Origin: the human T2T-CHM13v2.0 reference genome, Homo sapiens
Reading direction: 5' to 3' (one strand)
NCBI RefSeq assembly: GCF_009914755.1
Contig: NC_060930.1
Length of the DNA stretch: 64,000 nucleotides
Part shown: positions 42,250 through 42,961 of the stretch, one piece after another
Layout: each line of letters opens with the position of its first letter
Numbering within the stretch: the first letter of the stretch is position 1
The notes under the pieces: model-generated
Seen by the model: the letters and a program-made list of their open reading frames with translations, nothing else
Told to the model about the DNA's origin: nothing
Databases searched by the model: none
Position numbers and translations under genes: made by a program

Positions 42250-42618
42250 TGATATGGTTTGGCTGTGTCCCCACCCAAATCTCATTTTGAATTTTAATTC
42301 CAACAATTCCCACGTGTCGTGGGAGGAACCTGGTGGCAGGTAATTAAAACACGGGGGGTGGGTCTTTCCCGTGCTGTTCTCGTGCTAGTGGATAAGTCTC
42401 ACGAGATCTGACGGTTTTAAACACGGGAGTTTCCCTACACAAACCGTTTCTTTGCCTGCCGCCATCCACGTAGAATGTGACTTGCTCCTCTTCGCCTTCT
42501 GCCATGATTCTGAGGCCTCCCAGCCACGTCGAACTGTAAGTCCATTAAACCTTTTTCCTGTATAAATTATCCAGAGTTGGGTATGTCTTTATCAGCAGCA
42601 TGAAAATGGAGTAATACA
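42250..42618 (+). mobile_element. THE1A/B MaLR solo LTR, complete
   Basis: tgatatggtttggctgtgtccccacccaaatctc...gtaataca; 5-bp TSD cctgt at 42245 and 42619. Confidence 0.96.
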
Positions 42619-42666
42619 CCTGTTAAGAGTAGCAAGGAATGATGCCATGAGTAAAAGATGGAATCA

Positions 42667-42961
42667 GGCGGGGCGCAGTGGCTCAGCCTGTAATCCCAGC
42701 ACTTTGGGAGGCCGAAGCGGGCGAATCACCTGAGGTCGGGAGTTCAAGACCAGCCTGACCAACATGGAGAAAGCCCGTCTCTACTAAAAATACGAAATTA
42801 GCCGGGCGTGCGGGCGGATGCCTGTAATCCCAGCTACTCAGGAGGCTGAGGCAGGAGAATTGCTTGCACCTGGGAGGCAGAGGTTGCAGTGAGCCTAGAT
42901 TGTGCCATTGCATTCCAGCCTGAGCAACAAGAGTGAAACTCCGTCTAAAAAAAAAAAAAAA
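42667..42961 (+). mobile_element. AluSp
   Basis: gaggtcgggagttc...cctgaccaacatggagaaa diagnostics; TSD aaaagatggaatca. Confidence 0.97.

What the first reader, a model, noticed from the sequence alone, without database searches (positions are those of the whole stretch)
42250..42820. CpG-rich patch spanning a THE1A LTR and half of the neighbouring AluSp
Seen: the LTR has 14 CpGs, against 2 in the THE1 at 1-292. AluSp 42667-42820 has 12 CpGs but the rest of the same Alu has only 1, so the pattern follows position rather than element age. Some CpGs look newly gained (tacgaaa, cacgtcga). Established: methylated CpGs decay in the germline; THE1 LTRs can act as promoters; THE1A/B carry the PRDM9-associated motif CCTCCCTNNCCAC. 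Here that site reads cctcccagccac (42516-42527), one base short. Inference: either a germline-hypomethylated LTR promoter, or GC-biased gene conversion left by an eroded recombination hotspot.
Basis: partly seen in the sequence, partly recalled or inferred. Interest (0 to 1): 0.7.

Follow-up and report, generated by a model that had tools for sequence, protein, structure and literature searches.

The report
Germline-unmethylated LTR promoter of MIR548A1HG
An old retroviral LTR that starts the non-coding RNA MIR548A1HG has about three times the CpG sites of its relatives, most likely because it stays unmethylated in sperm and acts as a promoter in oocytes, as two published catalogues appear to list; it is an ordinary case of a known kind and shows no sign of a recombination hotspot.

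Summary
The counts are right. The solo THE1 LTR (42250-42618) has 14 CpGs; 88 other copies have 0-11 (group means 2.4-4.1). It keeps 9 of 17 family CpG sites (32 nearest kin: 19%) and has 5 new ones. There is no GC bias outside CpGs (4 W>S, 13 S>W over LTR plus Alu left half), and 0 of 88 copies carry CCTCCCTNNCCAC, so the hotspot/gBGC reading fails. The promoter reading holds. RefSeq starts MIR548A1HG inside the LTR, using its splice donor. Two supplementary tables list what maps to this element: a THE1B-initiated transcript in human GV and MII oocytes (PMC6102241) and a 200-bp island unmethylated in sperm only among 10 tissues (PMC4690492). That mapping across genome builds is inferred, but only one place in the window fits. 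The label THE1A is probably wrong. The Alu half-and-half contrast is weaker (P=0.053 once the split is free), and the Alu left arm is not a listed island. Open leads: a broken TRIM28-recruiting motif, two new MYB-like sites just upstream of the start, and a possible maternal gamete DMR at an AluY 1.3 kb downstream. Testis expression was not found or tested. Known kind, catalogued locus.

The parts
42250..42618 (+). Solo THE1 (MaLR) LTR, 369 bp, TG...CA; labelled THE1B in hg19 RepeatMasker as quoted in PMC6102241 Suppl. Data 3
   Evidence: Termini and 5-bp target-site duplication CCTGT at 42245-42249 and 42619-42623; 83-85% identity to nearest copies; label
42349..42548 (.). Sperm-only unmethylated CpG island (eCGI 41735, hg38 chr6:18522649-18522848); 12 CpGs; start could lie anywhere in 42261-42381
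   Evidence: PMC4690492 Table S1 row and header; mapping inferred
42447..42535 (+). Exon 1 of MIR548A1HG (RefSeq NR_149116.1), followed by the LTR's own splice donor GTAAG at 42536
   Evidence: Hub annotation; donor and downstream acceptors checked; 29 of 32 kin have GT at this place, 20 GTAAG
42410..42449 (.). Two new CpGs (42412, 42445) lying in a 7-bp inverted repeat (42411-42417 / 42441-42447); both form MYB-like sites (motif recalled); a family NF-kB-like 10-mer (42425-42434, motif recalled) lies between them
   Evidence: 7-bp inverted repeats are common in THE1 (72 of 88 copies have one)
42430..42480 (+). Region matching the THE1B TRIM28-recruiting motif of Altemose 2017 (positions 181-231 of the element); this copy lacks both named 7-mers and has 7 private differences. 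It keeps the YY1 7-mer CCGCCAT at 42459
   Evidence: paper; 19 of 32 kin have CTGCACA, 12 of 32 ATCCATG; kin have 0-8 differences, 3 of 32 have 7 or more
42516..42527 (+). Place of the THE1 PRDM9-associated motif; here one C short, matching neither CCTCCCTNNCCAC nor CCTCCC[CT]AGCCA[CT]
42667..42961 (+). Full-length Alu (AluSp by recalled diagnostics) with A tail and 15-bp duplication (42653-42667, 42958-42972); 12 CpGs in 42667-42820, 1 after
43717..43980 (+). AluY-like element (recalled diagnostics), 17 CpGs, carrying the second sperm-only island (eCGI 41736, about 43749-43948) in intron 1

Best explanation
The THE1 solo LTR is the promoter and first exon of MIR548A1HG, and it likely kept and accumulated CpGs because it has long stayed unmethylated in the germline, in sperm above all. 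Shown: TSS and splice donor lie in the LTR; slow loss of family CpGs (9 of 17 vs 19%); 5 new CpGs; no GC bias at other sites. Published, with the mapping inferred: transcription from this LTR in GV and MII oocytes, and hypomethylation in sperm but not in 9 other tissues. Inferred: without methylation C>T deamination slows (decay about 0.38 of kin, 95% range 0.16-0.77), so old CpGs stay and chance new ones are not erased. Oocyte use alone probably cannot give that drop, because most CpG loss is paternal (recalled). Speculative: escape from silencing was helped by loss of the TRIM28/KRAB-ZNF site, and activation by the kept YY1 site and new MYB-like sites. The Alu left half likely lies at the edge of the same sperm domain, but this step is weak.
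For: Exon 1 and donor: hub annotation. CpG excess: (site-specific P=0.0015). Genome-wide, 15 of 1384 copies matching a 35-base pattern keep all three CpG sites, against about 4 if sites were independent (two pairs look like duplications; rates for sites 2 and 3 were read by eye from the first 100 rows). So a protected class exists and this copy is in it. Oocyte transcript chr6:18522900-18543100 +, THE1B id chr6:18522780, GVO and MII (hg19). Sperm-only eCGIs at hg38 18522649 and 18524049. Only window starts 42261-42381 give two 200-bp windows 1400 bp apart with >=10 CpGs, which puts them on the LTR core and the AluY and implies an hg19-hg38 shift of 143-263 for the THE1B id (I recall 231). Not younger than kin: 20 non-CpG differences vs 14.5 expected. 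Sperm methylation best predicts CpG depletion in apes (bioRxiv 10.64898/2026.06.15.732472, passages).
Against: No liftover was run; identity with the published rows is inferred. The eCGI is a yes/no call and is only 200 bp. The grid windows at 42299 (12 CpGs) and over the Alu left half (42649, 12 CpGs) are not listed, so they are either methylated in sperm or filtered out. 3 of 3 family CpGs between exon 1 and the Alu are lost, and only 2 of 7 outside the core are kept. New CpGs (about 8 in LTR plus Alu left half) exceed even the no-decay expectation of about 3 (after removing double counts and one subfamily site); this is unexplained, though the region was chosen for being CpG-rich. No testis expression data were found. 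8 of 32 kin also lack both TRIM28 7-mers and have only 2-11 CpGs; the links to CpG count are not significant (P=0.33, 0.17).
Confidence: 0.85

Rival explanations
1. GC-biased gene conversion at a former PRDM9 hotspot raised CpG content, and the motif was then eroded.
For: THE1 elements host PRDM9 hotspots (PMC5705219 passages). The motif place carries a 1-base deletion. New CpGs are more than the no-decay expectation, and 8 of 11 W/S changes in 42352-42493 are W>S when CpG-making ones are counted.
Against: Outside CpGs: LTR 4 W>S vs 10 S>W (kin 142:241, P=0.59), Alu left 0 vs 3. LTR GC is 46.6%, within the 41-50.5% of other copies. Flanks are 31-36% GC. 0 of 88 copies have the full 13-mer, and no CCNCCNTNNCCNC lies within 40-45 kb on either strand. 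Sperm hypomethylation already explains the retention.
Confidence: 0.04
2. Selection on CpG-containing activator sites (two MYB-like, YY1, a GC box in the Alu) adds to hypomethylation and fixes new CpGs in a male-germline promoter driven by A-MYB.
For: 2 of 5 new LTR CpGs form MYB-like sites within 40 bp of the TSS; about 1.6% of possible TG/CA>CG changes would (28 of 1729). This copy has 3 matches, while 67 of 88 others have 0, 20 have 1 and 1 has 3. A-MYB uses ERV-borne sites in mouse and probably human spermatocytes (bioRxiv 10.1101/2020.03.11.987230 passages).
Against: The motif was recalled and chosen after seeing the sequence. The second site could be a template-switch copy of the first, since they form an inverted repeat. 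That paper found ERVK and ERV1 enhancers, not THE1. No testis expression or binding data were seen.
Confidence: 0.12
3. The LTR is an oocyte-only promoter, and maternal hypomethylation alone, plus chance, accounts for the CpGs.
For: Oocyte transcription is the only expression evidence found.
Against: A sperm-only island is listed at the same place; a roughly 60% drop in decay is hard to get from the female side alone (recalled male bias).
Confidence: 0.06
4. Chance or a younger insertion: the top tail of ordinary THE1 CpG counts.
For: One other copy keeps 9 of 17 family sites; CpG count rises with flank GC; the window was scanned for its best patch.
Against: Highest of 103 copies, including 14 picked for CpG retention; flank GC predicts 3.6 CpGs; divergence is not lower than kin; independent methylation and transcript rows coincide.
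Confidence: 0.03

Closest known systems
LTR-initiated transcription units (LITs) of human oocytes, Brind'Amour 2018 (PMC6102241; passages and Suppl. Data 3 part 8 seen)
   Same: THE1-initiated, spliced, intergenic, GV and MII oocytes; this locus appears to be row 800 of the 1056 human LITs
   Different: That paper does not discuss this locus in the passages I saw, nor CpG retention in the LTR or its sperm state
Sperm-specific experimentally defined CpG islands, Mendizabal and Yi 2016 (PMC4690492; passages and Table S1 rows seen)
   Same: >=10 CpGs in 200 bp, unmethylated in sperm only, repeat-derived; appears to be eCGI 41735. About 26% of 51,572 eCGIs are tissue-specific and over 80% of those are sperm-specific
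   Different: Sperm eCGIs are mostly Alu-rich; this one is in an LTR that is also an oocyte promoter
Hypodeaminated CpG islands versus BGC islands (Cohen, Kenigsberg and Tanay 2011; recalled, term seen only in search listing); sperm HMR birth and widening (Qu 2018, PMC5793779 passages)
   Same: Slow CpG decay without GC bias; CpG content as a record of germline methylation history
   Different: Small, repeat-borne and discontinuous; primate branch rates not measured here
THE1B PRDM9 hotspots and the TRIM28 coldspot motif, Altemose 2017 (PMC5705219; passages and section 63 read)
   Same: Same family and the same motif places
   Different: This copy has neither the PRDM9 match nor the TRIM28 7-mers
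A-MYB-bound ERV enhancers of spermatocytes (bioRxiv 10.1101/2020.03.11.987230, passages)
   Same: MYB-like sites in an LTR with a male-germline signature
   Different: There the sites are family-wide in ERVK/ERV1 enhancers; here they are private mutations in a MaLR promoter, and binding is untested

Membership tests
THE1 MaLR solo LTR | TG...CA ends with 5-bp target-site duplication | tested here: met
THE1 MaLR solo LTR | Full-length similarity to a large dispersed family | tested here: met
39 other listed hits at 83-85%; 2638 exact matches to its first 35 bases.
THE1A subfamily | Best match to the THE1A model | tested here: inconclusive
   No repeat library available; the published label is THE1B; nearest kin 362-372 bp vs 353-363 bp for the 1-292 group
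Oocyte LTR-initiated transcript | 5' end inside an LTR, same strand, spliced from the LTR donor | tested here: met
   RefSeq exon 1
Oocyte LTR-initiated transcript | Expressed in oocytes | tested here: met
   Published row, coordinate match inferred; reads not seen
Sperm-specific eCGI | >=10 CpGs in 200 bp | tested here: met
   12 in 42349-42548
Sperm-specific eCGI | Unmethylated in sperm, not in other tissues | tested here: met
   Published row 41735: 0 in nine tissues, 1 in sperm; base-level values not seen
Hypodeaminated CpG island | Slow CpG loss without W>S bias | tested here: met
   Against paralogues
Hypodeaminated CpG island | Low deamination on primate branches | not testable with these tools
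   No ape or monkey genomes held
gBGC island / PRDM9 THE1 hotspot | PRDM9 motif match | tested here: not met
gBGC island / PRDM9 THE1 hotspot | W>S excess at non-CpG sites | tested here: not met
gBGC island / PRDM9 THE1 hotspot | DMC1 or LD hotspot signal | not testable with these tools
   No coordinate match in the 6 supplementary files of PMC5705219
A-MYB-driven ERV element | MYB motif | tested here: inconclusive
   Recalled 8-mer matches at two places, chosen post hoc
A-MYB-driven ERV element | A-MYB binding and spermatocyte activity | not testable with these tools
   No data found

The most novel reading that the evidence does not exclude
One mutation cluster turned this THE1B copy into a promoter for both germlines. 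It broke the TRIM28-recruiting site and created CpG-containing MYB sites beside the start, so A-MYB binding keeps the LTR unmethylated, and lack of methylation in turn protects those sites. Oocyte transcription from the same LTR would methylate the sperm-unmethylated AluY 1.3 kb downstream and make a primate-specific maternal gamete DMR.
Probability: 0.12. Interest if true: 0.6.

Novelty: already known. Interest (0 to 1): 0.28.

Why it matters
The kind is known and the locus is in two catalogues, so it matters mostly as a clean worked case. CpG retention read from raw sequence pointed to a sperm-unmethylated, oocyte-active LTR promoter. About 1% of THE1 copies (15 of 1384) show such co-retention, which gives a cheap way to shortlist germline-protected LTRs. 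If the motif story holds, it shows how single LTR copies escape KRAB-ZNF silencing and become germline promoters, and it offers a candidate LIT-made maternal DMR. I did not find the link between MIR548A1HG, this LTR and germline methylation in print: search gave 4 papers, 3 listed, and passages of all 3 are unrelated.

Tried and rejected
Comparison with the 1-292 THE1 alone: rejected as a control, because it belongs to another length group. gBGC: rejected. Younger age: rejected. DUX4-driven activation: the DUX4-like site (recalled motif) is absent here but present in 55 of 88 others. Placental or ESC island: those columns are 0. Inverted repeat as a special feature: 72 of 88 copies have one of 7 bp. 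TRIM28-motif loss as a sufficient cause: not significant in 32 kin. Searches for a coordinate anchor in main texts gave only reference-number matches. Supplement searches with no match: Altemose, Konstantinidou piRNA clusters (2 files; I did not check that human coordinates are in them), Qu (file 1 not searchable, file 3 cut), Hashimoto (about MLT2A only, file 1 not searchable). Ozata 2020 on human pachytene piRNA loci is not held; bioRxiv supplements are closed. Any of these unseen files could bear on testis expression or sperm methylation. The bacterial promoter scan does not apply. A larger unbiased THE1 sample (60 more copies) was not obtained, so the unbiased group is 29 copies from chr1p. 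Earlier scan notes were not available.

Full report
Observation. The LTR runs 42250-42618 with a 5-bp target duplication, so it is a solo LTR; the Alu has its own 15-bp duplication. The patch has a gap: no CpG in 42531-42668.

Is it unusual? I took 89 other THE1 copies from the same genome: 29 nearest by similarity, 30 by a CpG-free 5' pattern, all on chr1p, and 30 related to the 1-292 copy, itself included. One 187-bp partial was dropped. The 88 hold 0-11 CpGs, with means 4.1, 4.0 and 2.4. A negative binomial on the first 58 gives P=0.0009 for 14 or more, and flank GC predicts 3.6. Against the 32 closest kin, this copy keeps 9 of 17 family CpG sites (kin 19%, range 0-9; P=0.0015), 7 of 10 in the core and 2 of 7 outside, and has 5 CpGs that kin lack. 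Genome-wide, 15 of 1384 copies matching a 35-base pattern keep all three CpG sites in it, against about 4 under independence (two per-site rates read by eye from 100 rows; two pairs are likely duplications). The other 14 reach at most 10 CpGs. It is not a young copy: 20 non-CpG differences against 14.5 expected (kin chosen by similarity are biased to low divergence).

The Alu is weaker. Family sites kept: 8 of 14 left, 1 of 10 right, while 63 other Alus average 24% and 22%. With the split point free, permutation P=0.053, and 1 of 63 is as extreme; the raw left count of 12 is the highest of 64.

Gene conversion. Outside CpG-making changes the LTR has 4 W>S and 10 S>W (kin 142 and 241, P=0.59), and the Alu left half 0 and 3. 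GC is 46.6%, inside the range of other copies, and the flanks are AT-rich. The full PRDM9-associated 13-mer is in 0 of 88 copies; 40 of 88 have the looser form used by Altemose 2017; this copy has neither, being one C short. Nothing shows that it ever had the hot form. One loose end remains: about 8 new CpGs over LTR and Alu left half, against about 3 expected with no decay at all (after removing two double counts and one AluSp subfamily site, and adding the shifted CpG at 42669). The region was picked for CpG richness, so I do not lean on this.

Promoter. RefSeq starts MIR548A1HG at 42447; exon 1 ends at the LTR's donor, and the next exons have proper AG/GT ends. 29 of 32 kin have GT at that place. 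Suppl. Data 3 of PMC6102241 lists an LTR-initiated transcript chr6:18522900-18543100 +, THE1B, id chr6:18522780, in GV and MII oocytes (hg19). [quoted passage not shown] I could not run a liftover. The paper's rule needs 10 CpGs per 200 bp, and only window starts 42261-42381 satisfy it for two windows 1400 bp apart. That places them on the LTR core and on the AluY at 43717, and makes the THE1B id fit with a build shift of 143-263 bp (231 recalled). The only other THE1 found in the window is 42 kb away. Against: the equally CpG-dense Alu left half is not listed, nor is the grid window 50 bp upstream.

Mechanism. Shown: slow CpG loss, new CpGs, no GC bias, TSS and donor in the LTR. Published with inferred mapping: sperm hypomethylation and oocyte transcription. 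Inferred: lack of germline methylation cut deamination to about 0.38 of kin (0.16-0.77), keeping old CpGs and sparing new ones. Sperm methylation is the best predictor of CpG depletion in apes, and CpG content records methylation history (PMC5793779 passages). Why this copy escaped is speculative. It lacks both 7-mers of the THE1B TRIM28-recruiting motif (PMC5705219) and has 7 private differences there, against 0-8 in kin, but 8 of 32 kin lack both too without a significant CpG gain. One of the two 7-mers is itself the deaminated form of a CpG site, so that link is confounded. It keeps the YY1 7-mer 12 bp after the start (9 of 29 nearest do), has lost the DUX4-like site, and two new CpGs form MYB-like sites at 42410-42417 and 42441-42449 (motif recalled). 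They are a 7-bp inverted repeat, so one may be a templated copy of the other. No testis expression or A-MYB data were found.

Comparison and verdict. It works like, and by two catalogues appears to be, an oocyte LTR-initiated transcript promoter and a sperm-specific repeat-borne CpG island; both kinds are common (1056 human LITs; roughly ten thousand sperm-only islands by the paper's percentages). It fails the tests for a gBGC or PRDM9 THE1 hotspot. The subfamily is more likely THE1B than THE1A. New here are only the joining of the two records with the sequence signature and the motif leads. What I saw of each paper: PMC6102241, passages plus one part of Suppl. Data 3; PMC4690492, passages plus table rows and header; PMC5705219, passages plus section 63; the two bioRxiv preprints and PMC5793779, PMC8559712, PMC13345537, PMC9263888 and PMC12535833, passages; PMC11615739, listing and a supplement search only; Cohen 2011, recalled. 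Interest 0.28.

Noticed in passing
window 43717-43980: AluY-like element with 17 CpGs, listed as a second sperm-only island and lying inside the oocyte transcript: a candidate oocyte-methylated, sperm-unmethylated region.
   Followed up: partly
window 62520-62590: The oocyte transcript's listed end (hg19 18543100) maps near 62570, where a TATAAA-like hexamer is followed by a U/GU-rich tract. This may be a poly(A) site of a short isoform that RefSeq lacks.
   Followed up: partly
window 42803-42817: The new Alu CpG at 42811 needs two adjacent changes; it makes a direct repeat of the 6-mer 8 bases upstream and a GC box (12 of 64 Alus have one). Possibly a local templated mutation.
   Followed up: partly
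window 42975-43121: Older Alu left-arm fragment directly after the AluSp's target duplication, with only 2 CpGs and a short internal duplication.
   Followed up: no
L002 (G000:C7:141290771-141291140) and L005 (G000:C1:3020767-3021135): Two close kin with 11 and 10 CpGs; candidates for other germline-protected THE1 copies (flank GC 47% and 58%).
   Followed up: no
L092/L099 (chr2) and L097/L103 (chr15): Near-identical pairs among the CpG-retaining THE1 copies (99.5% for the chr2 pair; same scores and counts for the chr15 pair), probably segmental duplications.
   Followed up: partly
L050:699-975: Another Alu with a 10 vs 1 left/right CpG contrast, so such asymmetry is not unique.
   Followed up: no
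window 42447-56056 (exons 1-3): Longest ATG-led frames in the first three exons are 71 and 51 codons; nothing suggests coding.
   Followed up: no
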